50,987 nucleotides of DNA, taken from the sequence record OK272486.1; one strand, 5' to 3'. This stretch comes from Escherichia phage JLBYU10. A model generated the notes under the pieces. That model was not told where the DNA came from, did no database searches, and saw only the letters and a program-made list of their open reading frames with translations. This document shows, piece after piece, positions 12,680 through 25,209 of this stretch (the stretch's first letter is position 1; each line of letters opens with the position of its first letter). The translations under genes were made by a program, and so were the position numbers.

Positions 12680-12721
12680 TTTCCACCTCATTTAAAAGGC
12701 GGCAAAACGCCGCCAGATTAA

Positions 12722-13748: not shown

Positions 13749-13779
13749 CTTTAAATCCTCGTTTGTTGTCGATGGGTGT

Positions 13780-13823: not shown

Positions 13824-14110
13824 TCAACAACTTTTCCAGTTAAAGAGATAAGTTGCCTTGTAATCTTGTGGCGGCGATACTTACGCGCAACAACAGGAAG
13901 GCTTTCACCGCTTTGATGGCCAAAGCAGATCGGCAATTCACCTTCAAGGGAGCGGAAGCCACCAAATTCAAGATCCCGCACTGGCTTCGTGCGCCAGGCT
14001 TCAATAAATCCTCGCTCGTCACGAGTGATATAGCGGTATATGTTCGGGAGGGGCAATTGTATCCCCTCAAAATCCACGGTGTCGGTATAGCTATAAAACT
14101 TAGAACTCAT
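13820..14110 (-). CDS. hypothetical protein
   Basis: ORF 13820..14161 trimmed to Met coupled to upstream small ORF. Confidence 0.4.
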   Translation of the reverse strand: MSSKFYSYTDTVDFEGIQLPLPNIYRYITRDERGFIEAWRTKPVRDLEFGGFRSLEGELPICFGHQSGESLPVVARKYRRHKITRQLISLTGKVVE

Positions 14111-14252
14111 AGTCAACAACTCCAAACTCATTGACGATTTGGGCCTTGTAGAAGCCGCCATTTTTCGCCAGGTTGTAACAAGCGGCTACGGTTTCAAATT
14201 CGCGCGCTTCCGGCTGGCTGTTTTCGTGTTCCCAGGTAATCAGAGTAACCAT
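14100..14252 (-). CDS. small hypothetical protein (50 aa), not in ORF track
   Basis: Hand translation MVTLITWEHENSQPEAREFETVAACYNLAKNGGFYKAQIVNEFGVVDYEF; GAGGA RBS. Confidence 0.3.
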   Translation of the reverse strand: MVTLITWEHENSQPEAREFETVAACYNLAKNGGFYKAQIVNEFGVVDYEF

Positions 14253-14285
14253 TTTAAAATCCTCGCATTCGTTGTCGATGCGTGT

Positions 14286-14329
14286 AATGTACAGGAATGC
14301 GAGGATTGAGTTTTAACAAAAAGTGCTAT
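14286..14329 (-). promoter_or_regulatory. Motif-type promoter-like unit (minus): ATAGCACTTTTTGTTAAAAC, 22-bp spacer, TACATT, 10-bp inverted repeat CCTCGCATTC/GAATGCGAGG around it
   Basis: Motif adjacent to TAA stop of upstream gene; long stem flanks the -10-like hexamer. Confidence 0.45.
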
Positions 14330-14593
14330 TTAGTCCAGGAATTCGATTTCACGCTCTCCAGTTAACGGATCCACAAGCCAGAATCCGAGCGGTTCGCCGT
14401 GAACACCGCCATAGAATCCAAGCGCCGTCAGATCTTCACCTTTAACAAATACCAGTTTTCCGCTACGGCCTACGTGAGACACGTTAACGATAACCGGAAA
14501 TGTGCGATCCTTAAATGCAGGACGCAGGGCGTAACATCCGTTGTTGAGCAAACGTGCTTTGCGCTTAACTGGAATAGGTGCATTAATTTTCAT
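14330..14593 (-). CDS. hypothetical protein
   Basis: ORF track; AAGGAG RBS. Confidence 0.5.
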   Translation of the reverse strand: MKINAPIPVKRKARLLNNGCYALRPAFKDRTFPVIVNVSHVGRSGKLVFVKGEDLTALGFYGGVHGEPLGFWLVDPLTGEREIEFLD

Positions 14594-14819
14594 GGTTATT
14601 ACTCCTTATCGTAAAGATTTAAAGACGTATAGTTTATTGCGGTAACTATATATCCGCATTGTTATTTCTCGCAGTGCAATATATTCCTTCCTGTTTTCCG
14701 GCAGACTGGCGAGCAACAACAGGCAGTATTTATAAGCGCGGTCAAGATTTCTTTCCGTGCCCCTGCAATATCCCTTGTTGCGCCTGGAACGGTACAGCCA
14801 TAACAATTTCTTGAACATT

Positions 14820-15029
14820 TCAGATACGCCCATACAGATCACAGACTTCGTTGATAAAACAGCGTTGAGACTCTTTATCGTCACGCTCAAAAATTGCGCG
14901 GCATTCAAACTTAAGATTATGCACGATGACTACAACCATATTTTCAGGCATTGAGCGGTTATAGCGTCGCGCGTCAGTGATTAAAACATCCATACCCATC
15001 TCATGTGCTTTCTTGATCACATCCAACAT
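14820..15029 (-). CDS. hypothetical protein
   Basis: ORF 14820..15053 trimmed to ATG with GGAGAAG RBS. Confidence 0.4.
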   Translation of the reverse strand: MLDVIKKAHEMGMDVLITDARRYNRSMPENMVVVIVHNLKFECRAIFERDDKESQRCFINEVCDLYGRI

Positions 15030-15283
15030 TTTTTCTTCTCCTGCAATAAGCAAACATCATTGATAAAATCAGCACGGCCCTTAATGTTGCTGATGTGGAA
15101 CGTCTTTTCAGCGTACAGGCCATCACCTTCAATCACGATCATTACGCGAGTCGGTTTATTCACGGGCGCACACGAAAAGAGTGGTCGCGCCGGAAGAAAT
15201 TTAGTAGCCACATCCAGGTTAGCCCTGGCGGCCCTGCAAAATGCCTCCGCCAGATCCAAATCATTTTCGGTAATCACCGCCAT
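15017..15283 (-). CDS. hypothetical protein
   Basis: ORF track. Confidence 0.4.
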   Translation of the reverse strand: MAVITENDLDLAEAFCRAARANLDVATKFLPARPLFSCAPVNKPTRVMIVIEGDGLYAEKTFHISNIKGRADFINDVCLLQEKKKCWM

Positions 15284-15555
15284 TACTTCTTGATCTCCTC
15301 ACTGATAAATTTCAGCACCTGACGCAAGAAAACCTCGTTGTTGATAGTCGCTGGCAATTCTTCCTTCACTTCTTGCGGCAGATAGATATTGCCATGCCAG
15401 GTCAAGCAATCGTAGTTGATACGATAAGAGCAAAGCCACTCGCAATCGTTATCTGCTTCCCAAATGCAGAGTTGCAGAACATCGCCAAAATCTTCAACAG
15501 TCAGATCCAGACCGTGACGCTTAGCGAAATTGAAAGTGGTTTTGCTGATGTTCAT
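15283..15555 (-). CDS. hypothetical protein, first gene of leftward block
   Basis: ORF track; CAGGAGATAGC RBS. Confidence 0.5.
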   Translation of the reverse strand: MNISKTTFNFAKRHGLDLTVEDFGDVLQLCIWEADNDCEWLCSYRINYDCLTWHGNIYLPQEVKEELPATINNEVFLRQVLKFISEEIKK

Positions 15556-15589
15556 TGCTATCTCCTGAGCGGTTCGTTTTGATGTGTGT

Positions 15590-15633
15590 AATGTACCCGA
15601 TCAGACGGCCTGAGTTTTAACAAAAAGTGCTAT
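15590..15633 (-). promoter_or_regulatory. Motif-type promoter-like unit (minus): ATAGCACTTTTTGTTAAAAC, 22-bp spacer, TACATT
   Basis: Only motif copy heading the leftward gene block; not preceded by a gene. Confidence 0.5.
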
Positions 15634-15660
15634 TTGACGGTTAGCGCCAGGATTGTGATC

Positions 15661-15752
15661 GAAATAATCAAAAGTAATCATTCGTAATCAAATAACGTCA
15701 AAATGATGATTGCCTTTGCAAACTTGATGAGAAAAGTAATCACGTTTAATCA
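15661..15752. repeat. Phased short direct repeats (TAATCA at 10-bp spacing, then GTAATCA/TTAATCA)
   Basis: Three TAATCA copies exactly one helical turn apart, two more related copies ~50 bp downstream; upstream of leftward promoter. Confidence 0.5.
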
Positions 15753-15899
15753 TTGGTTGCAGGGGAGATAGTGAAACCCTCCCCTCTTGCCTCACTTTTC
15801 CGCCTGGCTGTCAGTGGTTGTTATGTTCCGTTCCCGCCTGTTCTTTTGTTGACCTTCCGCAAAATACGATAACAAAAAATAACAAACAATACCTATATA

Positions 15900-16165
15900 A
15901 TACATTGAAAAATAAGGATTATTTATTTATATGTATCTATATATTCTCTTTTGTTATCTTGGTTATTGTGGTATTTGGTGGGGGTATATAGTTTTTGTGT
16001 ATCTGTATGTGTGTATGGGTATGTAGGGGCATATATATCTATATGGCACTTTCCGCGAGAAAACTTCGATAACAGGCAATGATAACATTGATTTATAAGG
16101 AAAAATAACGCCAATATTGTTATTGTGCCACCATGTAAAATTGATAAAACACGCGGGAACAAGAA
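15900..16165. repeat. TG/TA-rich non-coding element, copy 1 (homologous to 45000..45240)
   Basis: Shares TTATTTATTTAT-TGTAT...CTTTTGTTATCT...TTGTGGT..TTTGGT and GGGAACAAGAAAAA blocks with copy 2. Confidence 0.6.
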
Positions 16166-16172
16166 AAAACAG

Positions 16173-16201
16173 TTGACACATTAAATAGCATTATTGATAA
16201 T
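16173..16201 (+). promoter_or_regulatory. sigma70-type promoter (TTGACA, 17 bp, GATAAT)
   Basis: Canonical hexamers with 17-bp spacer ~30 bp upstream of first rightward early gene. Confidence 0.6.
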
Positions 16202-16230
16202 GCCGACACCTAACAACCAGGAGGTAGAAA

Positions 16231-16695
16231 ATGAGCGAGCAATCATTCACTGACACGCTGCGCCGTGCCGCTATTATGCTGGCTAATGGCGAGGAAGAGA
16301 CGATCAAGATTCCTGACGCGTATTTGCAGGTCCACATGTTCGGCAAGAAGTCGGCAAGCAATCCGGCGGCCTACATTCGCCAGATCATGAGTCGAGTGCC
16401 AGAAGTCGCCGAGCGGGGGAGCGTATCCGTTACCCGTGGCGTTTACGGGCCGGAAGATGAAAACTTCGGTAGCACTTTCTACGAGGTGCGCATTGTTGAA
16501 GGCCGTCGCAAGGTTTACAACAAAGATGCACTGGAAAGGGCAGTACGCCAGGCTAAGCGCAAGGTTGCAGAGGCGATCATTGATATGTCACCAAACCTGG
16601 CAAACTATGCGCCGGAAGAGTATGAAACATTATCAAAGGCCGTCGCTGACTTTCACGCGATGATCAAAAAAACTTTCCTGGAGGATGAGCAATGA
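16231..16695 (+). CDS. hypothetical early protein
   Basis: ORF track; AGGAGG RBS; first gene after strong promoter. Confidence 0.55.
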   Translation: MSEQSFTDTLRRAAIMLANGEEETIKIPDAYLQVHMFGKKSASNPAAYIRQIMSRVPEVAERGSVSVTRGVYGPEDENFGSTFYEVRIVEGRRKVYNKDALERAVRQAKRKVAEAIIDMSPNLANYAPEEYETLSKAVADFHAMIKKTFLEDEQ

Positions 16696-16964
16696 AAAAG
16701 GCGTTAATCGGCGTTTTGGTGGCAATGGCATTCCTGACCGGATGCGAAGAAGATGGCGCGCATGTTGGCAATGTGCAGATGGCTAACCCTGGCGATGACT
16801 ACAGCGTAAGGGAGCTATTCACCGCCGATGGTTGCACTGTTTACCGATTCTATGACGGTCGCACTGTTTACTTCACCAACTGCAAGGGAACGACTAGCTG
16901 GGAAGTGTCGAAAAGCAACGGCAAAGGCACGAAAACAGAATACATGACCGTTGAGACAAAATAG
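16692..16964 (+). CDS. lipoprotein (possible superinfection-exclusion type)
   Basis: Signal peptide with lipobox FLTGC; ATGA overlap with upstream gene. Confidence 0.5.
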   Translation: MKKALIGVLVAMAFLTGCEEDGAHVGNVQMANPGDDYSVRELFTADGCTVYRFYDGRTVYFTNCKGTTSWEVSKSNGKGTKTEYMTVETK

Positions 16965-17003
16965 CACTTTTTGTTAAAACTCAAATGTGGGGCCAGGTAT
17001 AAT
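16961..17003 (+). promoter_or_regulatory. Motif-type promoter-like unit: ATAGCACTTTTTGTTAAAAC, hairpin GGGCC..GGCCC, TATAAT
   Basis: Motif overlaps TAG stop of lipoprotein gene; TATAAT in hairpin loop 21 bp after TTGTTA. Confidence 0.5.
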
Positions 17004-17033
17004 GGCCCTACTTTCAACGAAGGAGATAAAACG

Positions 17034-17255
17034 ATGTACATTAAAAAGAAGATGAAATGCGTTTCCGTTAACTATGCTTGCTCCGGCATGTTCAAGCCTG
17101 GCGAAATCTATACGGCGCAAAAACTGAAATCATCAACCGGATCTTTTTACGTGAGCAATAGTAAGGGGCATCGCATGTTCCTGAACGGCGGCGAAGGCAC
17201 TAAGGTTATGGCACACGCTATGGTAATGGCTGAATTTGAGGAAGTGAAACAATGA
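17034..17255 (+). CDS. small hypothetical protein, paralog A
   Basis: ORF 16971..17255 trimmed to Met with AAGGAGA RBS; shares FxLNGxEGTK..A...V.AEFExV with next ORF. Confidence 0.45.
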   Translation: MYIKKKMKCVSVNYACSGMFKPGEIYTAQKLKSSTGSFYVSNSKGHRMFLNGGEGTKVMAHAMVMAEFEEVKQ

Positions 17256-17485
17256 TCATTGAAAACAATTTTCTTTGCGTTAAGAGCAATAGACCATTCT
17301 TCACGCCTGGCAAGGTGTACCAGGGCAAGAAGGACAAAAGAGATGGTCACTCTTATCATGTTTACTGCAACAACGGATACAAGTTTTACCTTAACGGCGA
17401 GAATGGAACTAAGATCGTTGCGTTTGAAAACGTAGTTGCAGAGTTCGAGCAGGTTACAGACGCTGAATTTGAGGAAGTGCAATAA
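17252..17485 (+). CDS. small hypothetical protein, paralog B
   Basis: ORF track; tandem paralog of previous gene. Confidence 0.45.
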   Translation: MIIENNFLCVKSNRPFFTPGKVYQGKKDKRDGHSYHVYCNNGYKFYLNGENGTKIVAFENVVAEFEQVTDAEFEEVQ

Positions 17486-17667
17486 TGGATGATTTTACTC
17501 GGCTTGTTCTAGGCTGGATTGTTTTTCTTTTTGCGTGGCTTATCCACTGTGCGAGGCATAAATTCAGACTGAGCTATGATAATTCATTCGTTATGACCTG
17601 CTTCAGTATTCCAGGATGGATCATTTTGCTTGTGGCTACTGCTGAATACATCCATAAAACATTTTAA
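17485..17667 (+). CDS. small membrane protein
   Basis: ORF track; two hydrophobic segments. Confidence 0.4.
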   Translation: MDDFTRLVLGWIVFLFAWLIHCARHKFRLSYDNSFVMTCFSIPGWIILLVATAEYIHKTF

Positions 17668-17677
17668 GGATTAATAT

Positions 17678-18217
17678 ATGAAAAAATACACTTTCGAACT
17701 ATGGGGCAAGAAATACGAATTAATGACCAGCAAGCCGATTGTTGTGTGCGATCTCGACGGCACGCTATCGGACGGATCGCATCGTTTGCATTTGCTGCCA
17801 ACTGAAAACTTGCACCTTACGGAATCGTGGAGCGAATTTAACAGGGCCGCCGCCGGAGATTCACCGATTAAAAGCACGATCGCGGTTATTAACGGTTTAT
17901 GGGTGTCGGGATTTGCCATCGTCATCTTGACCGGACGCAGCGACGAGGTTCGCTATGAAACCTGCAAATGGTTGAATGAGAACGGCGTGAAGTTTGACGA
18001 AATCATCATGCGCCGCCAGGAGGACAACCGAAAGGATACTGTTATTAAAGAAGAAGCCTTGCGCGCTATTGGCCTGGACAACATTGTTTGCGCCTTTGAC
18101 GATTCGCCGAACGTGGTTAAGCACTTCCGCAGCTTGGGGATCACAACCTATCAGGTCACGGAATACGACAAGCCACACGCTCACCTGCAATCTCACGGCG
18201 TGGAGTGTTTAAAATGA
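17678..18217 (+). CDS. HAD-family phosphatase (polynucleotide 3'-phosphatase-like)
   Basis: DLDGTL motif I of HAD superfamily near N-terminus; further acidic motifs. Confidence 0.55.
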   Translation: MKKYTFELWGKKYELMTSKPIVVCDLDGTLSDGSHRLHLLPTENLHLTESWSEFNRAAAGDSPIKSTIAVINGLWVSGFAIVILTGRSDEVRYETCKWLNENGVKFDEIIMRRQEDNRKDTVIKEEALRAIGLDNIVCAFDDSPNVVKHFRSLGITTYQVTEYDKPHAHLQSHGVECLK

Positions 18218-18375
18218 CTTGGTTGCTTTTAATCTTTGTCACAAGTTACAACTCCGCAGCTATTGAGTCGCAGGAGTTCCACGGCGAATCAAGATGCCAG
18301 GAAGCGCGAAAGCAAGTTGTTCTCCACATGTCAGATAGTGGTAAGGATGTAACAGCGTTATGCGTTCGTAAATAG
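18214..18375 (+). CDS. small hypothetical protein (53 aa), not in ORF track
   Basis: Hand translation MTWLLLIFVTSYNSAAIESQEF...; ATGA overlap upstream; TAG stop embedded in motif. Confidence 0.3.
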   Translation: MTWLLLIFVTSYNSAAIESQEFHGESRCQEARKQVVLHMSDSGKDVTALCVRK

Positions 18376-18415
18376 CACTTTTTGCAAAAACAGATTATCG
18401 GGCTTGCGGTATAGT
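18372..18415 (+). promoter_or_regulatory. Motif-type promoter-like unit: ATAGCACTTTTTGCAAAAAC, hairpin GGGCTT..AAGCCC, TATAGT
   Basis: Motif overlaps TAG stop; -10-like hexamer in hairpin loop, 22-bp spacer. Confidence 0.5.
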
Positions 18416-18446
18416 AAGCCCATAAACAACAAACGAGGATTAAATC

Positions 18447-18710
18447 ATGGCTAACAAGATTGAGTTTTTTAAAGCGGTGGACGTTATCGACGGCGAGCCT
18501 AGCTTCTTTGCTATCCATTCTATTGACGGCAAGGATATTGGGTACGACGTTATCCGTCGAGATGGAATCTCAAAACTTAGTGACCTGGTAGGCTATATTG
18601 TGTCAAACGGAAAATGCGCATGGCCCGATTCGCCACGAGAGCCACGCCGCCGCAACATGATTGATCCTGAATTGCTTTACACGCTGGTAGTAGAGGGAGA
18701 AAATAAATGA
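18447..18710 (+). CDS. hypothetical protein
   Basis: ORF track; ACGAGGA RBS. Confidence 0.45.
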   Translation: MANKIEFFKAVDVIDGEPSFFAIHSIDGKDIGYDVIRRDGISKLSDLVGYIVSNGKCAWPDSPREPRRRNMIDPELLYTLVVEGENK

Positions 18711-18892
18711 TTTGGTTACTTGCTTTTTTGGTTGTTTTTCTTTACATTTCAGGCTTGTTTACGTTCCGTGCGTTGGTGAAATATTCTGACGCGACAGACA
18801 AGGACGATAAAATCGTTCTCGCTTTCTGGTTTGTTTGGGTATGGTTAGCAATTTACGAGATCATCAGAGACAAACAGAAATTTGAGTGGTGA
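18707..18892 (+). CDS. small membrane protein
   Basis: ORF track; hydrophobic. Confidence 0.4.
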   Translation: MIWLLAFLVVFLYISGLFTFRALVKYSDATDKDDKIVLAFWFVWVWLAIYEIIRDKQKFEW

Positions 18893-18950
18893 TTCTTGCT
18901 ATGGCGCATTCATGCAGTGCGCCATGTTGAGAAAACCTAAAGGGGGGGGA

Positions 18951-19103
18951 ATGATGCGTAACTTTGAAAAAATCATTACCAAAAAGAAGCGTCGCGGGTA
19001 CGATGAGCATGTGGAGCTTGTGAAAAAGCAACGCAAGAAGCGCAACGAAGACAAGAAGCGCGGGAAAAAAATTAATGCGATTTTTCGCTATGGAGATCAT
19101 TAA
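18951..19103 (+). CDS. small basic protein
   Basis: ORF 18882..19103 trimmed to Met after G-rich RBS; Lys/Arg-rich. Confidence 0.3.
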   Translation: MMRNFEKIITKKKRRGYDEHVELVKKQRKKRNEDKKRGKKINAIFRYGDH

Positions 19104-19105
19104 TC

Positions 19106-19696
19106 ATGAAACGAGACATTATCATCCTTAATGGGCCGCCAGGTTGCGGGAAGGACACTATTGCAGCTTACCTAACGGGCCATCGTTACCCAGCGGTCAA
19201 GGCGTCATTCAAACAGCCGATGTTCGATATTGCTTTTTCTATGCTGGGCGTGTACCGATACGATGAATTTATGGACCTGTACAACGACCGAGAGCAAAAA
19301 GAAAAGCCTCAAGTTATCTTAGGCGGCAAGTCACCTCGACAATTCATGATCTGGATTAGTGAGGATGTAATGAAGCCAGTTTTTGGGGAGCAGTATTTCG
19401 GGCGTCGAATGGTTGAAGAGATTCACGAGATGTACCGAGATTTGGCGGTTGTGATCAGTGATGGCGGATTCCCCGAAGAAATCAAGCCGCTTGTTAAGGC
19501 AGGGCATGAAGTGCATATTTGCCGATTGCATCGCGACGGCTTCACGTTTGCTGGCGATTCGAGAGACTACATTGACCTGAGCGGTTATCACTATCGAATC
19601 CATCACTATGACTTCCACTTGCAGGACGGCAAGCCGGAACTGGCTGTAAACGAGATCGTCAATACTGTCAAATGGAAGCACACACAGATTAAATAG
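19106..19696 (+). CDS. P-loop nucleotide/polynucleotide kinase-like protein
   Basis: Walker A GPPGCGKDT at N-terminus, adenylate-kinase-like. Confidence 0.55.
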   Translation: MKRDIIILNGPPGCGKDTIAAYLTGHRYPAVKASFKQPMFDIAFSMLGVYRYDEFMDLYNDREQKEKPQVILGGKSPRQFMIWISEDVMKPVFGEQYFGRRMVEEIHEMYRDLAVVISDGGFPEEIKPLVKAGHEVHICRLHRDGFTFAGDSRDYIDLSGYHYRIHHYDFHLQDGKPELAVNEIVNTVKWKHTQIK

Positions 19697-19736
19697 CACG
19701 AATTGCTAAACGCGGGGTTATCGGCCCCGCTATAAT
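19693..19736 (+). promoter_or_regulatory. Motif-type promoter-like unit (degenerate motif ATAGCACGAATTGCTAAAC), hairpin GCGGGG..CCCCGC, TATAAT
   Basis: Motif overlaps TAG stop of kinase gene; 22-bp spacer. Confidence 0.45.
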
Positions 19737-19766
19737 GCGCACATCAACAATCAAGAGGAAATCACA

Positions 19767-20147
19767 ATGGTTAACATCAGAAAAATTCGCGTCGGCACTA
19801 AATTCTTAGTTACTTACGCAATTCCAGATAGCGGAATGAAGAAGGGCCAGATTGTTAAGGTTGATAGCAAAAGATTCGGAATCCCTGGCATCAATGGCTA
19901 TCTAATCAATAAAGATCTTGGATTCGGCGGCTTCGCTATCCGTTCGCTTGATGGTATTGTTGCTACCCTCAAGCAAATCACTAACCATCGCGGCTGCCCA
20001 ATCAAGACGATTAAAGCGCCAACCAATTACGGCAAACTGGATAATCGTCGAATCCGCCGCCTGGCGCGTAACGCGTTAAAATTCCGTGGCGTAGGCGATG
20101 ATTTCTACTATGGTTACAAGAGGATCGCGCGCAATGCTGGGAAATAA
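19767..20147 (+). CDS. hypothetical protein
   Basis: ORF track. Confidence 0.45.
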   Translation: MVNIRKIRVGTKFLVTYAIPDSGMKKGQIVKVDSKRFGIPGINGYLINKDLGFGGFAIRSLDGIVATLKQITNHRGCPIKTIKAPTNYGKLDNRRIRRLARNALKFRGVGDDFYYGYKRIARNAGK

Positions 20148-20174
20148 CAATAACGCAACGAATCCTAAGCCACC

Positions 20175-20209
20175 TTTTGATTTTCATTCCGCAATGATTG
20201 CGGTATTAT
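20175..20209 (+). promoter_or_regulatory. Promoter-like unit without the motif: TTGATT, 21-bp spacer containing perfect palindrome CCGCAATGATTGCGG, TATTAT
   Basis: Same hairpin-in-spacer design as motif units. Confidence 0.35.
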
Positions 20210-20246
20210 CAATGCTACTTTTTCTTTATAGCATGAGGGCGCTACT

Positions 20247-20495
20247 ATGGTTTTTAACGCATTGAAACGACTGTTTAAGCCGGAATACCGGATCGTATTT
20301 TGCCGAGACTGTTCTACTTATCATGTGCAGCGACGCAGCTTAGGCGGCAATTGGCACTATGTTACAGACGACTTTTTCGGCATTATTGCCACTGAATTTA
20401 AGTATTACAGCGATGCTTATATGTACGTCAAGAAGCGCCACCGCTTACGCAAGTGTCGTTTTTCCGTGCTGATTCACGTTAATGATTGTTACTGA
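20247..20495 (+). CDS. hypothetical protein
   Basis: ORF track. Confidence 0.4.
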   Translation: MVFNALKRLFKPEYRIVFCRDCSTYHVQRRSLGGNWHYVTDDFFGIIATEFKYYSDAYMYVKKRHRLRKCRFSVLIHVNDCY

Positions 20496-20502
20496 GGTTA
20501 AA

Positions 20503-20685
20503 ATGAAAACTGGTATTATTATTCTTTTCCTGATCCTTTTCGGCAGTCATTTAACCATTAACTATGAGGGCATTATGGCCTTTTGGGGCAACTTGATGGT
20601 TTTTGCCGCTGGTTCAATTACTGGCTACTCTGACGGGAAAAAGGACGGCGTTCGCAAGATGCTGATGGGACTTAAACAAAAATAA
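20503..20685 (+). CDS. small membrane protein
   Basis: ORF 20482..20685 trimmed to Met with GAGG RBS. Confidence 0.35.
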   Translation: MKTGIIILFLILFGSHLTINYEGIMAFWGNLMVFAAGSITGYSDGKKDGVRKMLMGLKQK

Positions 20686-20696
20686 GGGGATCTGAA

Positions 20697-20987
20697 ATGG
20701 CAAACAAAACTTACCGCAAACTACTGGTTAACGCTTTTGAAAACATCGCGCAGTGTAACAAGTGGAACGACTCTAAACACTCGCCAGTCACAATGAAGCG
20801 CGCCGGATTCAAAAATGCTCGTTCATGGGCGCGAGCTTTCGCAGCTTGCTATATGCCGGATGGCGGACTAGGGGCGATGAACGATTTTTTGATCAATATG
20901 ATAGAGGAAGCGGCGCGAGAGGATCGACCGCTGACACAGCGAGATTTTGACGACTTCGCGCGCGATGAGCTTTACTATCTGAGCTAA
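20697..20987 (+). CDS. hypothetical protein
   Basis: ORF track. Confidence 0.45.
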   Translation: MANKTYRKLLVNAFENIAQCNKWNDSKHSPVTMKRAGFKNARSWARAFAACYMPDGGLGAMNDFLINMIEEAAREDRPLTQRDFDDFARDELYYLS

Positions 20988-21030
20988 TAGCACTTTTTGT
21001 TAAAACTTCCGCAAGGGCATTTGGTAAAGT
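20987..21030 (+). promoter_or_regulatory. Motif-type promoter-like unit: ATAGCACTTTTTGTTAAAAC, hairpin AAGGGCA..TGCCCTT, TAAAGT
   Basis: Motif abuts TAA stop; -10-like hexamer inside hairpin, 22-bp spacer. Confidence 0.45.
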
Positions 21031-21062
21031 GCCCTTATTGAAGCGAAACAGAGGAAAGCGCA

Positions 21063-21275
21063 ATGAAAATCAAAATCACCAAAATCGACACTATCAACGG
21101 CGACGGATCAATCACTCTTGAGCAATGTGGCCTGGTTGTTGGTGATGTGCTGGAAGTTGACGGACATTTCAGCGACGGATCTTATTGTGTTATTGCGCCG
21201 CGTAACAGCGAGTTTATCAAGGCTGGCGATAATATTAGTGTTAACCATGACGAATGCGAGGTAGTAGAAGAATGA
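21063..21275 (+). CDS. hypothetical protein
   Basis: ORF track. Confidence 0.45.
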   Translation: MKIKITKIDTINGDGSITLEQCGLVVGDVLEVDGHFSDGSYCVIAPRNSEFIKAGDNISVNHDECEVVEE

Positions 21276-21535
21276 TCACGATTAACCTGTCAGAGCAGCA
21301 AGCGCGCATTATGTTGTCGGCCTTCGGTTGGCGAGACAATGACGGTTTACAGGCTACAGTTAAAATTTATGAGCCAGTGGCGCGTGAAGTTTTCAGCCAG
21401 CTAGAACACGCATTTGATCCTGCTGGGACTGAGCAAGCGGAAACTGCCGCTTGGTTCGGAGAGAACGGATACAGAGATCAGCAAGTCGAAAACTGGAAGC
21501 GAATAAACGAGACTATGGAGGAATCAGGTTTATGA
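21272..21535 (+). CDS. hypothetical protein
   Basis: ORF 21254..21535 trimmed to Met overlapping upstream stop. Confidence 0.4.
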   Translation: MITINLSEQQARIMLSAFGWRDNDGLQATVKIYEPVAREVFSQLEHAFDPAGTEQAETAAWFGENGYRDQQVENWKRINETMEESGL

Positions 21536-21846
21536 TTTACATTCACTACTACCAAATCGGAACTAACGAGAACAAAAAAGAGCATCGTTTCATCCACGAT
21601 GATTTGGACAAGGCAAAGGCCCAGCAACAGGTTTTAGGCGGCGTTATTCAGGCTTTTGAGCCTGTGGAAGATATTGAGCACCGCGAGCATTTAAAAGATG
21701 TTGTTATTGATGAGATCTCTTGCTTGATTGATGATATGACAAATCACGGCCCTGGTTCCCCGTGGGAAGACGCAGGATCTGTAACGTGGGACAAGGCCAA
21801 AATTAAGACGCTAAACAACTTTCGAGAGATTCTCGACGGTTTTTAA
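21532..21846 (+). CDS. hypothetical protein
   Basis: ORF 21451..21846 trimmed to Met with GGAGGAA RBS, ATGA overlap. Confidence 0.4.
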   Translation: MIYIHYYQIGTNENKKEHRFIHDDLDKAKAQQQVLGGVIQAFEPVEDIEHREHLKDVVIDEISCLIDDMTNHGPGSPWEDAGSVTWDKAKIKTLNNFREILDGF

Positions 21847-22044
21847 TTAAAAACGCATAGCCGTTAGAGCGCCCAAATCGCATTCTAACGAGCTATTTTT
21901 CTGGTAAGGTGATTTAATGGATGAGTACAAACAACCTTCGCAGTGGTGCAAAGAGAAGCAAGAAGAGGCACTGGAGCGCGGAGATGTGGAAGAAGCTATG
22001 AACTATTTCAAACTTGCGGAAGAATGGAAGGGGAGAGGATACTG

Positions 22045-22275
22045 ATGTTCGGCATGAATGAGGCGCAATTCAACGCAGCTAAACGCCAGGCTAAAAAGTG
22101 CGGCGAGGCGATGAAAGCGGATGTGGAAAAGCGCGGGAAGTATGTTGATGAAGTAATGAAGGGCATCATTGCAGAACACTACCAGCCAATCGCGCCAATG
22201 TTGACGATCACTCAATTCATTTGGCTATGTGGTTACTTGCGTGGACGTTGGGGGAACGCTTTCGACAGGGAATGA
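22045..22275 (+). CDS. hypothetical protein
   Basis: ORF 21943..22275 trimmed to Met with GGGAGAGGA RBS. Confidence 0.35.
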   Translation: MFGMNEAQFNAAKRQAKKCGEAMKADVEKRGKYVDEVMKGIIAEHYQPIAPMLTITQFIWLCGYLRGRWGNAFDRE

Positions 22276-22437
22276 TTGACAACTCTTTCCTGATTGGTTA
22301 GCATGGCGTCGTTTACATAAGAGCGGCTTAGTCCGAACGCGTGACGCGATAGTCACACAACAACGGCGATATGCAGGAGGTTTTTGCATTGCAAAATAAT
22401 CCGTAAGACGTATCGCCTTTTTTAATGGAGATCCAAA

Positions 22438-22671
22438 ATGATTAAATACGAATTAACCGTTTCTTTCCGTGATACCGTTATTCATCCTTTCCTCAAGAGC
22501 TTTGTTAAATGCTTTACGGTAGAAGTTACAGAGGATCAGCTAGACGGTGACGAAACTTGCATTTCTATCGGCAATGTTGCTTATCCGATTCACAACATTA
22601 CCAGCATTAAGCGTGAGGTTGTCGCTGATGAATTACAAAGTGAAGATGACGATCCGGCGAATGGGGCGTAA
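22438..22671 (+). CDS. hypothetical protein
   Basis: ORF track. Confidence 0.4.
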   Translation: MIKYELTVSFRDTVIHPFLKSFVKCFTVEVTEDQLDGDETCISIGNVAYPIHNITSIKREVVADELQSEDDDPANGA

Positions 22672-22813
22672 TTGCCAATCATGCAAACAGGAATATGAAT
22701 GCGTAGTTGATGCTCTTGATGAACTGGAAGCAGTAGCAAAAGCAAAAGAGCAATCGGGCGCTAATCCTGAAACACATCAATTTTCAATTAACCTTGTGAG
22801 GACTTTACAATGA
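22661..22813 (+). CDS. small Cys-rich hypothetical protein
   Basis: ORF 22547..22813 trimmed to Met; CQSCKQEYEC. Confidence 0.25.
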   Translation: MGRNCQSCKQEYECVVDALDELEAVAKAKEQSGANPETHQFSINLVRTLQ

Positions 22814-23034
22814 TCGCATTATCTTTCTGCATTGGTTTTATCATGGCTATCATTATCTTTTCCGTTGTCATGCGCTTTGCTTATAAGTTCGTTATTAATA
22901 AAGGCTGGTACGCTTCTGCAATCTGGAGCGAAAAACAAAAGAAATGGCTTGTCCGTGGTCAATACCTGACAATCGGTAGCAAGATCCTTAATTCCATTCG
23001 AGCCAAAGATGGAAAAGTAAAATACACAGCTTAA
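22810..23034 (+). CDS. small membrane protein
   Basis: ORF track; hydrophobic N-terminal helix. Confidence 0.4.
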   Translation: MIALSFCIGFIMAIIIFSVVMRFAYKFVINKGWYASAIWSEKQKKWLVRGQYLTIGSKILNSIRAKDGKVKYTA

Positions 23035-23036
23035 AA

Positions 23037-23064
23037 ATCACCCGCCGAACGGCGGGTTTTTTTA
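23037..23064 (+). terminator. rho-independent terminator ending the early block
   Basis: CCCGCC..GGCGGG stem followed by T7. Confidence 0.6.
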
Positions 23065-23076
23065 TTGCCCGTTGTC

Positions 23077-23085
23077 TGGTATAAT
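23077..23085 (+). promoter_or_regulatory. extended -10 promoter-like element (TGGTATAAT) before terminase genes
   Basis: TGnTATAAT match ~29 bp upstream of TerS start. Confidence 0.35.
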
Positions 23086-23113
23086 CAGGTATCTAACCAA
23101 AGGAGGATTAACA

Positions 23114-23641
23114 ATGGCTAAAAACGTTGAGCCTGCTGTAAAGGCATTAAATTTCAAAGAGTTATACAATAAAACTTATGGCGATATTGTTACGCTAAAT
23201 AACCGCCACAAGTACACGCCGGAACAGGTTTTTGATATGGCGATCCGCTATTTCACTTGGGCCGAAGAGAATCACATCCAGGCGGCTGAAACTGCTTCCT
23301 TTCAGGGTGACGTGTACGAGAGCAGAGTTTACAAGCCTCGCGTTTTCACGGTTAACGGATTCAGCTTGTATCTAGGCGTTACCGAGGCGGCTGTAAGCAA
23401 GTGGCGTAAAGAGCCTGGATTCTGCGATGTGATGGAGTTTGTTGATAAAGTAATTTACGAGCAAAAATTCCAGCTTGCGGCAAACAACATGATTAACGCT
23501 GGATTCATCGGTAAAGAGATCGGAGTAGAGAAGCCAGCGACAGTGAGCGTTGAGGCGAGCGCGGCAGCTAATGCAAGCATTGACGCAGTAACTGCCGATG
23601 AGGTGAAAGAGGCCGTGATTGATATTCTGGAGCAACTTTAA
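23114..23641 (+). CDS. terminase small subunit (putative)
   Basis: ORF 23072..23641 trimmed to Met with AAAGGAGG RBS; directly upstream of TerL. Confidence 0.5.
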   Translation: MAKNVEPAVKALNFKELYNKTYGDIVTLNNRHKYTPEQVFDMAIRYFTWAEENHIQAAETASFQGDVYESRVYKPRVFTVNGFSLYLGVTEAAVSKWRKEPGFCDVMEFVDKVIYEQKFQLAANNMINAGFIGKEIGVEKPATVSVEASAAANASIDAVTADEVKEAVIDILEQL

Positions 23642-25209
23642 TGATCATATGGGAAGATTTGACGGCGGCGCAAAAGCGAGCCATTAAAGAAATCAGTGAG
23701 CATTCATTCGAAAAGATGATCAGAATCTGGTTCCAATTATTGCAGGGGCAAAAATTCCAGAGCAACTGGCATTTTAGCTTATTGTGCAGTGAGGTAGAGA
23801 AGATCATCAATGGAGAGTCGCAGAATGTGATTTTCAACATTACGCCAGGTAGCGGCAAGACTGAGATTTTCTCGATCCACATGTCACCCTACGCGTCATT
23901 GAAAAGCCGGAAAGTGAGAAACCTTAACCTTTCGTTTAGTGATGGCCTTGTCCAGCAAAACAGCAACCGGATAAAGGAGATTATTGGTTCTCCTGAGTGG
24001 CAAGAGCTATGGCCTGGAAAACTGGCAAAGGCGAGCGCTAAAGATCTGATAGTCACCGAAGGCGGCAAGGTTAAATTGCAGGTTAACTCACGTTCTATTG
24101 GCGGCCAGGTAACAGGTTTGCGTGGCGGCTATATGGATGATGGTTTTACTGGTATGCTGGTTCTTGACGATCCAGACAAGCCGTATGATATGCTTTCTAA
24201 GGTCAAGCGCGAGGCTATTCACATGCGGTTAAAAAACACAGTGCGATCGCGTCGAATGAAAGACACCACGCCGATTGTTATGGTGCAACAGCGACTACAC
24301 GTTAATGATTCCACCTGGTTCATGCTTAATGGCGGAATGGGTGGTATTGAGTTTAAAGTCGTGAGCATTCCGGCGCTGGTTACGAAAGAATACCGCGAAA
24401 CGCTTCCTGATTGGTTGAAGCCTGAATTTGATCGTGATGTGCTGTCAAGTAAGCCAGTGATGATAGATGGCGTTGCTCATTATTCATTTTGGCCTGCGAA
24501 GGAAAGCGCGGAGGAATTGCTTGCATTGCGCAATGCAGATCCTTATACGTTCGCCAGTCAGTACCAACAGCAGCCAATCGCGCTGGGCGGGAACGTGTTT
24601 AAAACAGAGTGGTTCCAGTATTACGGCAGCGGCGAAAAATGCGCACTTCCTAAACCGGATCGCTTTGAATACACATTTATCACTGGAGATACCGCACAGA
24701 AGGCCGGAGAGCTTAACGACTATTCGGTTTTTTGTTATTGGGGGATGTATAAGAATCGCGTTTACTTCATTGATGGCATTCGCGGAAAGTGGGAAGCGCC
24801 GGATCTTGAATTAAATTTTATTGCCTTCGTTAACCAGTGCTGGAAGCGCAATAAGGAGTGTGGCAGCTTGCGACGTATCCACATTGAGGATAAGGCCAGC
24901 GGCACGGGTTTGATTCAGGGGGCCAAAAAGAAGATCCCGATTGATATAAATCCCGTTCAGCGAAGCAATGACAAGGTGACGCGAGCAATGGACGCCGCGC
25001 CAGTAATGAGGGCCGGACGTGTGGCACTGCCAGAAAATCACCCCATGCTGCCTGAGATACTGGCAGAGGTTGCAGCATTCACTTTTGATGATTCTCATCC
25101 CCATGATGATATTGTCGATAATATAGTTGATGCTGTTAACGTCGAAATGAACTTGGCAGATGATCCGGTGGCAAGGATGAAAAAGCTGGCTGGTCTACGC
25201 AATAAATAG
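23641..25209 (+). CDS. terminase large subunit
   Basis: 522 aa; Walker A-like PGSGKTE, Walker B-like LVLDDPD; position before portal. Confidence 0.75.
   Translation: MIIWEDLTAAQKRAIKEISEHSFEKMIRIWFQLLQGQKFQSNWHFSLLCSEVEKIINGESQNVIFNITPGSGKTEIFSIHMSPYASLKSRKVRNLNLSFSDGLVQQNSNRIKEIIGSPEWQELWPGKLAKASAKDLIVTEGGKVKLQVNSRSIGGQVTGLRGGYMDDGFTGMLVLDDPDKPYDMLSKVKREAIHMRLKNTVRSRRMKDTTPIVMVQQRLHVNDSTWFMLNGGMGGIEFKVVSIPALVTKEYRETLPDWLKPEFDRDVLSSKPVMIDGVAHYSFWPAKESAEELLALRNADPYTFASQYQQQPIALGGNVFKTEWFQYYGSGEKCALPKPDRFEYTFITGDTAQKAGELNDYSVFCYWGMYKNRVYFIDGIRGKWEAPDLELNFIAFVNQCWKRNKECGSLRRIHIEDKASGTGLIQGAKKKIPIDINPVQRSNDKVTRAMDAAPVMRAGRVALPENHPMLPEILAEVAAFTFDDSHPHDDIVDNIVDAVNVEMNLADDPVARMKKLAGLRNK

What the first reader, a model, noticed from the sequence alone, without database searches (positions are those of the whole stretch)
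16231..23034. Early block of ~22 small genes with no recognisable function
Behind a strong sigma70 promoter lies a tightly packed rightward array (frequent ATGA overlaps) of mostly 50-130-aa proteins, several of them membrane or Cys-rich, none with a recognisable enzymatic motif apart from the HAD phosphatase and P-loop kinase. In virulent phages such blocks concentrate host-takeover and anti-defence functions; the first gene (16231..16695) is the best-placed candidate.
Basis: inference. Interest (0 to 1): 0.5.

Follow-up and report, generated by a model that had tools for sequence, protein, structure and literature searches.

The report
T1-like phage small-gene arm, cassette-built
This is the ordinary block of small, mostly function-unknown genes that every T1-like phage carries next to its DNA-packaging genes. 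It is built from several short promoter-plus-hairpin cassettes that related phages swap among themselves, not from one operon.

Summary
Window 16231-23034 holds 24 rightward genes, 93% coding, with seven ATGA overlaps. They lie behind a near-consensus sigma70 promoter and end at a strong terminator before terS. dN is far below dS for nearly all of them, so they are real genes. The window is a whole Warwickvirus (T1-like) genome, and the block is syntenic with T1 genes ST77-ST55.

Only the HAD (Pnkp-type) phosphatase and a P-loop kinase get a function. Nothing matches a known anti-defence family. Structure models of the first gene (g1, DUF7174) and of the most conserved gene (g21) match no solved fold.

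The block is not one operon. Four copies of a family-wide 19-nt motif, each followed by a fixed-distance -10 box and a hairpin, split it into about seven transcription units. The motif also marks recombination breakpoints between relatives. This resembles the PeSL cassettes of T4-type phages.

About five genes are family-wide core genes. Others are swapped alleles: g1 together with its promoter, g12, g18, and the hot spot after g2. The host-takeover or anti-defence reading stays plausible for the variable genes but is untested. Overall this is an ordinary, already sequenced kind of region.

The parts
16173..16201 (+). Near-consensus sigma70 promoter, TTGACA-17-GATAAT. Its spacer contains AAATAGCA, the left half of the family motif.
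   Evidence: I7. The alternative g1 alleles in SECphi27 and XY3 carry 12/12 promoters, and phiE31-2 carries 11/12.
16231..16695 (+). g1, 154 aa, DUF7174. It is the first gene and a hypervariable allele that is swapped together with its promoter.
   Evidence: PF23796 E 2e-28. About 50 clusters in 1.84e9 representatives. AF2 pLDDT 76. No significant fold match. 24-28% identity in SECphi27, XY3 and phiE31-2. T1 ST77 gives a sub-threshold DUF7174 hit.
16692..16964 (+). g2, 90 aa, lipoprotein (lipobox LTGC), DUF4884.
   Evidence: Resembles T1 Cor only in the signal peptide.
16962..17013 (+). PeSL-like cassette 1: motif 16962-16980, -10 TATAAT 16998-17003, hairpin about 16987-17011. It is a recombination joint.
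   Evidence: Breakpoints fall here in 5 of 5 relatives.
17034..17485 (+). g3 (17034-17255, 73 aa) and g4 (17252-17485, 77 aa), tandem paralogues.
   Evidence: 38% identity, E 6e-16. phrog_9122.
17485..17667 (+). g5, 60 aa, two TM helices. Replaced or absent in most relatives.
17678..18217 (+). g6, 179 aa, HAD phosphatase of the Pnkp type (DxDGT motif). Core gene, equivalent to T1 ST64.
   Evidence: PF25109 E 1e-20. PDB Pnkp1 4xrp 9e-8 and T4 Pnkp 1ltq 4e-5. 58% identical to T1 ST64.
18214..18375 (+). g7, 53 aa, hydrophobic N-terminus.
   Evidence: phrog_5579. dN 0.008 / dS 0.48.
18373..18425 (+). PeSL-like cassette 2: motif 18373-18391, -10 TATAGT 18410-18415, hairpin.
   Evidence: SECphi27 breakpoint at 18371.
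18447..19103 (+). g8 (18447-18710, 87 aa), g9 (18707-18892, 61 aa, two TM helices) and g10 (18951-19103, 50 aa, pI 10.5).
19106..19696 (+). g11, 196 aa, P-loop kinase (GPPGCGKDT), labelled dNMP kinase. Core gene, equivalent to T1 ST62.
   Evidence: phrog_139 E 1e-51. 1466 phage records. No PDB sequence or profile hit.
19694..19736 (+). PeSL-like cassette 3: degenerate motif TAGCACGAATTGCTAAAC, hairpin GCGGGG..CCCCGC, -10 TATAAT 19731-19736.
19767..20987 (+). g12 (19767-20147, 126 aa, pI 10.8, two alleles), g13 (20134-20265, 43 aa, TM), g14 (20247-20495, 82 aa, 4 Cys), g15 (20503-20685, 60 aa, TM) and g16 (20697-20987, 96 aa).
   Evidence: PDB profile searches of g12 and g16 were empty.
20988..21036 (+). 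PeSL-like cassette 4: motif 20988-21006, -10 TAAAGT 21025-21030, hairpin 21013-21036. It is 88-95% identical in distant Drexlerviridae.
   Evidence: (H65-H69).
21063..21846 (+). g17 (21063-21275, 70 aa, acidic), g18 (21272-21535, 87 aa, DUF7180, equivalent to T1 ST60) and g19 (21532-21846, 104 aa, acidic).
   Evidence: PDB profile searches were empty.
21857..21902 (+). Terminator-like hairpin (13-bp stem) followed by U5, between g19 and g20.
21917..22275 (+). g20 (21917-22045, 42 aa) and g21 (22045-22275, 76 aa). g21 is a family-wide core gene, a three-helix bundle, and is equivalent to T1 ST59.
   Evidence: g21: 834 phage records, dN/dS about 0.02, AF2 pLDDT 90, no fold hit.
22276..22304 (+). 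Second sigma70-like promoter, TTGACA-17-TAGCAT (10/12), ahead of g22.
22438..23034 (+). g22 (22438-22671, 77 aa, pI 4.3), g23 (22628-22813, 61 aa, conserved CxxC, equivalent to T1 ST56) and g24 (22810-23034, 74 aa, N-terminal TM, DUF7299).
   Evidence: The g23 profile gives weak HMA-domain hits, E 6e-4 to 0.6.
23040..23064 (+). Intrinsic terminator (7-bp stem with 6 GC pairs, then T7) closing the block. T1 has one at the same place.
   Evidence: (z -3.0).
23076..23086 (+). Extended -10 promoter-like site, TGGTATAAT, just ahead of terS (23114-23641).

Best explanation
The region is the pac-proximal small-gene arm of a T1-like siphovirus (Drexlerviridae, Tempevirinae, Warwickvirus). It is positionally equivalent to T1 genes ST77-ST55 and lies between the divergent non-coding control region and terS.

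It works as a string of short, independently promoted cassettes:
1. A near-consensus sigma70 promoter (16173) drives g1-g2. These are most probably the first products made by host RNA polymerase.
2. Four copies of a family-specific composite element follow. Each has the stop codon of the upstream gene inside a conserved 19-nt motif (TAGCACTTTTTGTTAAAAC), then a -10 box 17-19 nt (usually 18) after the motif, then a GC hairpin in a variable position. They restart transcription for g3-g7, g8-g11, g12-g16 and g17-g19.
3. A terminator-like hairpin, a further sigma70-like promoter (22276) and a strong terminator (23040) complete the block.

The same motif precedes the helicase, primase (in T1), Dam and exonuclease-region genes, so most of the block is co-regulated with the replication genes (early or delayed-early class; inferred).

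The content is a mix.
- Conserved core: a Pnkp-type 3'-phosphatase paired with a P-loop kinase, acting on nucleic-acid ends or in nucleotide salvage, plus g18, g21 and g23. These presumably serve the phage's own development.
- Exchangeable ORFans: g1 with its promoter, the g3-g5 hot spot, g12 and an alternative g18. They are swapped between relatives by recombination at the conserved cassettes and at gene borders. Together with the lipoprotein and small membrane proteins, they are the plausible host-interaction, exclusion or counter-defence genes.

Shown: gene structure, purifying selection, synteny, the motif with its spacing and distribution, the breakpoints, and the absence of known-family matches. 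Inferred: timing, promoter activity, hairpin function, and any role in host takeover or anti-defence.
For: - Identity and synteny: 96-97% nt identity to JK16, AV105, brachmannus and others. The T1 map has the same layout, and the T1 terminal repeat 1-2800 starts in the equivalent control region.
- Gene models and overlaps. Purifying selection.
- Motif: 15 copies at <=3 mismatches against 0.04 expected. Nine copies in T1 against 0.01 expected. More than 120 IMG/VR stretches, mostly on 46-53 kb contigs.
- Fixed -10 and leader. Hairpins with z about -3. Motif orientation always matches the downstream genes in both small-gene arms and before the replication genes.
- Breakpoints at the motif: window 16959-16985 in 5 of 5 relatives, 15636 in two, 18371 in one.
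- The g1-plus-promoter cassette is swapped, and each allele keeps a consensus promoter.
- Core status: g6, g11, g18, g21 and g23 have T1 homologues in the same order. g21 is in 834 records with dN/dS about 0.02.
- Enzymes. The phosphatase and kinase travel as a pair in other Drexlerviridae (PMC13164509, rows H125-H131).
- No known function elsewhere.
Against: - No expression data exist for this phage family in the searchable literature, so 'early' and all promoter and terminator activities are predictions.
- In the motif promoters the TTGTTA hexamer lies 22 nt from the -10 box, and the best -35-like hexamer (TTAAAA) lies at 18-19 nt. They are therefore not canonical sigma70 promoters and may need a phage or host factor.
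- Three inverted motif copies sit just upstream of late structural genes (major capsid, tail chaperone, side tail fibre). A simple 'early promoter' reading does not explain this.
- Several breakpoints lie at gene borders rather than at the motif (19761, 20094, 21303, 21488, 17479, 17667).
- A perfect extended -10 (TGGTATAAT) precedes terS, so promoter type alone does not separate early from late units.
Confidence: 0.75

Rival explanations
1. One reading: the block is one early operon behind the strong sigma70 promoter, its small proteins are mainly host-takeover and anti-defence effectors, and g1 is the lead effector, comparable to T7 Ocr.
For: - Consensus-like promoter plus a strong RBS before g1.
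- g1 diverges sharply between near-identical phages.
- ORFan content with several acidic small proteins: g17-g20 and g22 have pI 4.3-4.9.
- By synteny with T1, the promoter-proximal genes lie in the terminally redundant DNA.
- A small dispensable gene next to the phosphatase gene in the related Dhillonvirus SECphi18 (Ksap1) is sensed by Avs2. This shows that such genes do meet host immunity (10.1101/2024.01.31.578182).
Against: - Five internal promoter-like cassettes and two terminator-like hairpins break the array.
- Five genes have T1 homologues in the same order, and g21, found in 834 phage records, has dN/dS about 0.02. This is not typical of accessory counter-defence genes.
- There are no hits to any anti-restriction, Acr or other anti-defence family in Pfam or PHROGs.
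- g1 is not strongly acidic (pI 5.8) and its model is not a DNA mimic.
- Most Drexlerviridae are highly RM-sensitive (PMC8594841).
Confidence: 0.25
2. g1 (DUF7174) is a DNA-binding immediate-early regulator. It would switch the motif promoters on, and its own promoter off, by binding the TAGCA-N5-TGyTA element centred near -42. The block would then be a two-step transcriptional cascade.
For: - Y48, R50 and R55 are invariant or nearly so across the family.
- The motif is an imperfect inverted repeat lying where class II activators bind.
- The left half-motif AAATAGCA lies in the spacer of P16173.
- T1's first gene is a remote DUF7174 member.
Against: - The fold matches are below any reliable threshold (Foldseek best E 5e-3, TM 0.27).
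- g1 alleles are only 24-28% identical while the motif is invariant from T1 to Warwickvirus.
- A better-conserved candidate binder exists: the Cro/YdaS-like HTH protein at 987-1442(-), 59% identical to T1 ST23.
- The motif could simply be a strong UP-element-like promoter read by host polymerase alone.
Confidence: 0.1
3. g6 and g11 together form a split polynucleotide 5'-kinase/3'-phosphatase that heals broken RNA or DNA ends, for example after host anticodon nucleases or other defence nucleases. On this reading the conserved centre of the block is a repair or counter-defence module rather than a nucleotide-supply module.
For: - g6's best matches are the phosphatase domains of Pnkp enzymes: PF25109, Pnkp1 4xrp, T4 Pnkp 1ltq.
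- It lacks a kinase domain of its own.
- A P-loop kinase gene is its constant neighbour in T1 (ST64/ST62) and in Webervirus phages, and the pair relocates together (PMC13164509).
Against: - g11 has no detectable sequence similarity to the T4 Pnkp kinase domain or to any PDB chain, and its PHROG label is dNMP kinase.
- None of the annotated relatives I read (AV105 whole genome; T1) carries an annotated RNA or DNA ligase. I did not search the window itself for one.
- The authors of the KanT1 paper interpret the pair as nucleotide supply.
Confidence: 0.3

Closest known systems
Coliphage T1 left-arm genes ST77-ST55 (NC_005833) and the same region in sequenced Warwickvirus and Hanrivervirus phages (JK16, AV105, SECphi27, tunus, XY3)
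   Same: - Same position, between the divergent control region or pac end and terS.
- Same orientation.
- Same terminator just before terS.
- Same order of the core genes: phosphatase, kinase, DUF7180, the g21 family, the CxxC protein.
- The first gene is of the DUF7174 type.
- The same 19-nt motif is present.
- Close relatives are 96-97% identical in nucleotide sequence.
   Different: - Only 5 of 24 genes are detectable in T1 by tblastn.
- T1 carries HNH endonuclease genes here, and this window does not.
- This window has the short version of the hot spot after g2. JK16, XY3, SECphi27 and 2019SD1 carry 1.4-1.8 kb of extra genes there.
PeSLs (promoter-early stem-loop cassettes) in the hyperplastic regions of T4-type phages (Arbiol et al. 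2010, PMC2839356; Comeau et al. 2014, PMC4122927)
   Same: - A composite element that starts at the stop codon of the upstream gene.
- An AT-rich conserved part.
- A sigma70-like -10 box.
- A stable stem-loop whose position varies: between the boxes, or overlapping the -10 box.
- Placement in front of ORFans in variable regions.
- Coincidence with insertion, deletion and replacement junctions between close relatives.
   Different: - A different phage family (small siphovirus rather than T4-like myovirus) and an unrelated sequence.
- The conserved part here is a precise 19-nt near-palindromic motif without a canonical -35 at the right spacing.
- Copies also precede core replication genes.
- Inverted copies precede three late structural genes.
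- Promoter, terminator and mini-circle activities were shown experimentally for PeSLs. None has been tested here.
T4 polynucleotide kinase/phosphatase (Pnkp, PDB 1ltq) and Capnocytophaga Pnkp1 (4xrp)
   Same: g6 aligns to their HAD phosphatase domains and has the DxDGT nucleophile motif.
   Different: g6 is the phosphatase domain alone. The putative kinase partner g11 is a separate protein of a different, dNMP-kinase-labelled family with no detectable similarity to the Pnkp kinase domain.
Ksap1 of Dhillonvirus SECphi18 (10.1101/2024.01.31.578182)
   Same: A small (74 aa), dispensable protein of unknown function encoded next to the phosphatase gene of a related small siphovirus. It varies between close relatives.
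   Different: The authors report homologues only in Dhillonvirus. Ksap1 is known as a trigger of Avs2 and not as an inhibitor.

Membership tests
T1-like (Drexlerviridae) pac-proximal small-gene arm | Lies between the divergent non-coding control region and terS, is transcribed toward terS, and is closed by an intrinsic terminator. | tested here: met
   Window terminator 23040-23064 and terS 23114; T1 terminator 8322-8344 and terS 8396.
T1-like (Drexlerviridae) pac-proximal small-gene arm | Shared core genes in conserved order: Pnkp-type phosphatase, P-loop kinase, DUF7180, g21 family, CxxC protein. | tested here: met
   tblastn to T1: 58, 45, 40, 32 and 48% identity, colinear. DUF7180 in T1 ST60, E 8e-32.
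T1-like (Drexlerviridae) pac-proximal small-gene arm | Expressed early in infection. | not testable with these tools
   No time-course data were found. Inferred only from promoter types and from sharing the motif with replication genes.
PeSL-type composite promoter/stem-loop cassette | Repeated intergenic element that contains the upstream stop codon, an AT-rich segment and sigma70-like promoter boxes. | tested here: inconclusive
   The stop codon lies inside the motif, and a TAnAnT -10 lies 17-19 nt (usually 18) after it in 15 copies. However, no canonical -35 sits at 16-18 nt spacing.
PeSL-type composite promoter/stem-loop cassette | Stable stem-loop within or next to the promoter, in a variable position. 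| tested here: met
   Hairpins of 8-10 bp, z -1.9 to -3.2, overlapping or preceding the -10 box.
PeSL-type composite promoter/stem-loop cassette | Located preferentially before ORFans in variable regions, and at indel or replacement junctions. | tested here: met
   Ten of the 15 direct copies aligned lie in the two small-gene arms. Breakpoints at 16959-16985 (5 of 5), 15636 (two) and 18371 (one). Other junctions lie at gene borders.
PeSL-type composite promoter/stem-loop cassette | Demonstrated promoter and terminator activity, and recombination products (mini-circles). | not testable with these tools
   Experimental features described in PMC2839356.
Pnkp (polynucleotide 5'-kinase/3'-phosphatase) | HAD 3'-phosphatase domain with a DxDxT nucleophile motif. 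| tested here: met
   g6 carries VCDLDGTLS. PF25109 E 1e-20. It aligns to 4xrp and 1ltq.
Pnkp (polynucleotide 5'-kinase/3'-phosphatase) | P-loop polynucleotide kinase domain homologous to the T4 Pnkp N-terminal domain, fused or associated. | tested here: not met
   g6 has no kinase domain. g11 has a P-loop, but neither phmmer nor its profile finds 1ltq or any other PDB chain.
Known anti-defence or host-takeover protein families (Ocr, ArdA, Acr, Ral/Lar, Stp, etc., as represented in Pfam and PHROGs) | Significant profile match of any gene in the block. | tested here: not met
   No such hit for any of the 24 genes (NCBIfam for 10 genes). The only Acr-named hit was T1 ST77 to AcrF2, at E 0.005 and 17.6 bits, below the cut-off of 27.
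HMA (heavy-metal-associated, MxCxxC) domain, considered for g23 | Significant profile similarity over the whole ferredoxin-like domain. | tested here: inconclusive
   Several Cu-ATPase HMA chains hit at E 6e-4 to 0.6, but only over about 22-33 residues around the CxxC loop. Pfam gave no HMA hit.

The most novel reading that the evidence does not exclude
The conserved TAGCA-N5-TGyTA motif may be the operator of a phage-encoded dimeric regulator. The candidates are the Cro/YdaS-like protein at 987-1442(-) and, less likely, g1. Bound near -42, it would turn on about 15 delayed-early promoters. A half-site in the spacer of the immediate-early promoter would shut that promoter off. Inverted copies would act on three late structural genes. 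On this reading one element would set the whole temporal programme of T1-like phages, whose regulation has never been explained. The same element would also serve as the homology patch that lets these phages exchange ORFan cassettes, including a fast-evolving first gene of new fold that meets host immunity.
Probability: 0.15. Interest if true: 0.7.

Novelty: new member of a known kind. Interest (0 to 1): 0.33.

Why it matters
T1-like phages are among the most commonly isolated coliphages and Klebsiella phages, and they are being considered for therapy. About half of their genes have no function, and the way they time gene expression is unknown.

This analysis does not assign functions to the small genes. 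It does sort them into two groups:
- a conserved core (g6, g11, g18, g21, g23);
- exchangeable cassettes (g1 with its promoter, g3-g5, g12, and an alternative g18).

That sorting tells an experimenter which genes to delete first when looking for host-range or counter-defence effects, and which are probably needed by the phage itself.

It also points to a family-wide promoter/hairpin motif. The motif both structures transcription of the block and marks recombination joints. This would extend the PeSL idea from T4-like myoviruses to a siphovirus family.

Tried and rejected
- Rfam scan of 15000-24000 at E<=1 and a tRNA scan of the whole window found nothing relevant.
- The 65-nt stretch that is conserved in distant phages (20983-21050) is not an RNA family. 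It is one copy of the promoter motif.
- Word-based homology search found only 2 clusters for g1 and 3 for g21. Profile-based searches were needed.
- PDB profile searches for g11, g12, g16, g18 and g19 were empty or insignificant.
- I considered g2 as a Cor or Llp homologue and rejected it. Only the signal peptide aligns, and the phage has a separate Cor-position lipoprotein at 44566-44847(-).
- I considered whether any small membrane protein belongs to the lysis cassette and rejected it. Holin, endolysin and spanin lie at 6879-7977.
- Annotations in relatives such as 'methyltransferase type 11' (g17), 'inducer of pleiotropic effects' or 'fusion protein' (g21), 'tail fiber protein' and 'HNH endonuclease' (hot-spot genes in phiE31-2) have no support from Pfam or PHROGs, and no literature was found for them.
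- Genes inserted at the hot spot in relatives (JK16 gp33, 375 aa; the XY3 298-aa protein) have no Pfam family.
- Literature searches for DUF7174, the motif string, T1-like promoter motifs and Drexlerviridae transcriptomes returned nothing usable.
- SECphi18 AdfA and Ksap1 turned out to belong to T4-like and Dhillonvirus phages, not Drexlerviridae.

Full report
**What the window is.** The 7.2 kb around the finding is 96-97% identical to many sequenced coliphages: JK16, AV105, brachmannus, EC167, tunus, SECphi27. Their records place them in Drexlerviridae, Tempevirinae, Warwickvirus. Mapping the AV105 annotation onto the window shows that the window is a complete, circularly permuted T1-like genome. 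Its layout is as follows.
- Primase and a Cro-like regulator at the left end.
- Helicase, Dam, an exonuclease-region gene and the lysis cassette at 1551-7977.
- A leftward arm of small genes at 7992-15555.
- A 675-bp non-coding region.
- The rightward arm that is the finding, at 16231-23034.
- terS, terL, the head and tail genes, recombination genes and tail fibres.

**Check of the observation.** ORF listing and start refinement by ribosome-binding sites give 24 rightward genes of 42-196 aa. They are 93% coding, with seven ATGA overlaps and two 1-nt overlaps. The promoter TTGACA-17-GATAAT at 16173-16201, followed by AGGAGG and the ATG, is real. It is one of only three 11/12 matches in the genome.

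g6 is a HAD phosphatase of the Pnkp type: PF25109 at E 1e-20, a DxDGT motif, and alignments to Pnkp1 4xrp and T4 Pnkp 1ltq. g11 is a P-loop protein in the PHROG family labelled dNMP kinase.

Five proteins have TM helices. g2 has a lipobox. A few have 3-4 cysteines.

Comparison with five relatives gives dN far below dS for almost every ORF. This includes the very small g7, g13 and g20. These are genuine genes.

**Relation to T1.** The T1 record has the same architecture. A rightward run of small genes, ST77 to ST55, lies at 539-8311. A rho-independent terminator follows at 8322-8344, and terS starts at 8396.

The T1 record begins at the packaging end. Its terminal repeat 1-2800 covers the control region and the first seven genes. 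By synteny, the promoter-proximal part of the window's block is expected to lie in terminally redundant DNA. This is an inference and was not tested here.

Only g6, g11, g18, g21 and g23 are detectable in T1 by tblastn, in the same order. T1's first gene, ST77, gives a sub-threshold full-length DUF7174 match at E 2e-4. The first-gene family therefore appears to be positionally conserved.

**Functions.** Pfam, PHROGs and NCBIfam (ten genes) return only DUFs or 'unknown function' for everything except g6 and g11. Specific results follow.

- **g1 (DUF7174).** It is a small, fast-diverging family found in phage-derived sequences. About 50 clusters at 50% identity were found among 1.84 billion representatives, nearly all about 150 aa.
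  - The AF2 model has mean pLDDT 76, and about 85-90 for residues 11-90. It shows a helix/beta-hairpin domain followed by long C-terminal helices.
  - Foldseek finds nothing: best E 5e-3, TM 0.27.
  - Conserved residues cluster in a YIR...R helix.
- **g21.** It occurs in 834 phage records, comparable to the 807 records matched by the 7.2-kb region in blastn and dominated by Klebsiella and Escherichia phages. Its dN/dS is about 0.02, lower than that of terS. It folds confidently as a three-helix bundle with pLDDT 90 and has no structural match, E > 2.
- **Profiles of g11, g12, g16, g18 and g19** find nothing in the PDB.
- **g23**, with a conserved CxxC, gives weak partial hits to copper-ATPase HMA domains. 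This is a lead only.
- **g3 and g4** are tandem paralogues.
- **g2** resembles T1 Cor only in its signal peptide. A separate Cor-position lipoprotein exists at 44566-44847(-).

The statement 'no recognisable function' therefore survives a serious test.

**Transcription architecture.** A blastn search showed that about 65 nt between g16 and g17 are 88-95% identical in distant Drexlerviridae whose flanking genes are not alignable. This stretch is one copy of a repeat.

- TAGCACTTTTTGTTAAAAC occurs 15 times at <=3 mismatches, against 0.04 expected.
- It occurs nine times in T1, against 0.01 expected.
- It occurs in more than 120 IMG/VR stretches, mostly from 46-53 kb contigs.

Aligned copies show a common layout. 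The stop codon of the upstream gene lies in or just before the motif. A TAnAnT -10 box follows 17-19 nt (usually 18) after the motif. Then come a roughly 25-nt leader and a Shine-Dalgarno sequence. A stable hairpin lies between the motif and the -10 box, or overlaps the -10 box. GenBank annotators of T1 and SA30RD marked these hairpins as terminators and some of the boxes as sigma70-like promoters.

Inside the block the cassettes sit in the roughly 70-nt gaps g2/g3, g7/g8, g11/g12 and g16/g17. A terminator-like hairpin with a U5 run follows g19. A TTGACA-17-TAGCAT promoter precedes g22. A strong terminator follows g24. The block is therefore about seven units, and only g1-g2 lie directly behind the canonical promoter.

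Direct copies of the motif also precede the helicase, Dam, an exonuclease-region gene and, in T1, the primase. They precede every unit of the leftward arm as well. This is the best available argument, though an inferred one, that most of the block belongs to the same temporal class as the replication genes.

The promoters are not canonical. TTGTTA is 22 nt from the -10 box, and TTAAAA is 18-19 nt away. The motif is an imperfect inverted repeat, TAGCA-N5-TGyTA, centred near -42. A protein factor may therefore be involved. The Cro/YdaS-like HTH protein at 987-1442(-) is 59% identical to T1 ST23 and is the most conserved candidate.

**Mosaicism.** Comparison with six relatives shows the following.
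- The promoter-plus-g1 cassette (window 15982-16680) is replaced in SECphi27 and XY3 by an allele 27-28% identical in protein. The left flank is 92% identical in SECphi27 and the right flank 94% identical in both. phiE31-2 carries a 24%-identical allele. Each allele keeps a consensus promoter: 12/12 in SECphi27 and XY3, 11/12 in phiE31-2.
- g12 exists as alleles of 100% and 48% identity, and g18 as alleles of 93-95% and 49%.
- g5 and g7 are replaced in some relatives.
- After g2 there is an insertion hot spot carrying 1.4-1.8 kb of other ORFans in JK16, XY3, SECphi27, phiE31-2 and 2019SD1. None of these has a Pfam family, except one DUF7421 match.

Alignments break exactly at the motif copy 16959-16985 in all five relatives. 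They break at the leftward copy (15636) in two and at 18371 in one. Other junctions lie at gene borders.

This combination is what Arbiol, Comeau and Krisch described as PeSLs in T4-type phages (PMC2839356, PMC4122927): a composite promoter/stem-loop element that starts at the upstream stop codon, sits in front of ORFans, and coincides with indel junctions. The sequence and the phage family are different here, and no activity has been tested. I found no mention of the motif string in the searchable literature. Subscription papers on T1 and Rtp could not be checked.

**Interpretation.** The block is best described as the hyperplastic, probably early, small-gene arm typical of T1-like phages. 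A conserved core is interleaved with exchangeable ORFan cassettes.

It has the strongest host-type promoter, it is first in line, and it is hypervariable. But nothing here shows an anti-defence activity. No known family is matched. Several genes are too conserved to be accessory. The BASEL study found most Drexlerviridae highly sensitive to restriction systems, with no genomic correlate (PMC8594841).

A related example, Ksap1 of Dhillonvirus SECphi18, shows that such small dispensable genes can be what host immunity senses rather than what blocks it.

The phosphatase-kinase pair could be a split end-healing enzyme or a nucleotide-salvage pair. The kinase shows no similarity to the Pnkp kinase domain, so membership in Pnkp is not met for that feature.

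**Verdict.** The region is an ordinary, already sequenced kind of phage region, and its genes remain functionally unknown after profile and structure tests. The single-operon picture is wrong. The added value is the split into core and cassette genes and the family-wide promoter/hairpin motif. Interest is modest.

Noticed in passing
window 29830-29848(-), 33582-33600(-), 50901-50919(+); T1 (L004) 15067-15085(-), 18831-18849(-): Inverted copies of the 19-nt motif lie immediately upstream (about 15-50 nt) of three late structural genes: major capsid 29896, tail assembly chaperone 33616, and side tail fibre 48906-50882 on the minus strand. T1 has the same arrangement before ST47 and ST40. In this orientation the motif reads ...AAAAGTGCTAT.., which resembles an extended -10. 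A simple early-promoter model does not explain this.
   Followed up: partly
window 15636-16172: The 540-bp non-coding core between the divergent arms is AT-rich. It holds seven TGTTAT/ATAACA repeats (0.54 expected) plus TATGTATCTATAT-type repeats. The T1 record's packaging end maps to the equivalent region. It is a candidate pac site, terS-binding site or origin. AV105 annotates an implausible ORF here (window 15931-16098).
   Followed up: partly
window 7992-15555 (minus strand): A mirror-image leftward arm of about 18 small genes is also punctuated by six motif cassettes (8296, 10458, 11132, 13822, 14328, 15632). It includes a helicase-like gene at 8807-10387. Its first promoter is of the motif type, whereas the rightward arm starts with a canonical sigma70 promoter.
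   Followed up: partly
window 23076-23086: A perfect extended -10 (TGGTATAAT) lies directly after the block's terminator and 28 nt before the terS start. It may be the promoter of the packaging and structural operon.
   Followed up: no
window 987-1442 (minus strand) and 1476-1494: A Cro/YdaS-like HTH protein (150 aa, 59% identical to T1 ST23) is encoded divergently from the helicase gene. A motif copy lies in the shared 108-bp control region. This protein is the most conserved candidate for a motif-binding regulator.
   Followed up: partly
L001 (JK16) 1000-3071, corresponding to window 15829-16415: The JK16 record carries a 587-bp tandem duplication covering the promoter and the 5' third of g1 (annotated gp29). 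This may be an assembly artefact of terminal redundancy at the packaging end, or a real duplication.
   Followed up: no
public records matched (e.g. MG065673 'Campylobacter phage A119', MG065670 A121, MG065679 A13a): About 20 records labelled Campylobacter jejuni phages carry this T1-like block, with g21 97-99% identical. They look like coliphage contaminants or mislabelled records.
   Followed up: no
window 39458-39476 and the stretch about 39500-40020: A motif cassette lies between tail genes I and J, with TACAAT, AAGGAGG and an ATG near 39530. It suggests a moron-like insertion inside the late tail operon.
   Followed up: no
window 22045-22275 (g21): This 76-aa protein is more constrained than terS (dN/dS about 0.02). 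It occurs in 834 phage records, dominated by Klebsiella and Escherichia phages and including some 44-kb genomes, and it lies a short distance upstream of terS in the genomes examined (this window, T1 and the close relatives). It models confidently as a three-helix bundle with no known relative. It is a good target for finding a new core function.
   Followed up: yes
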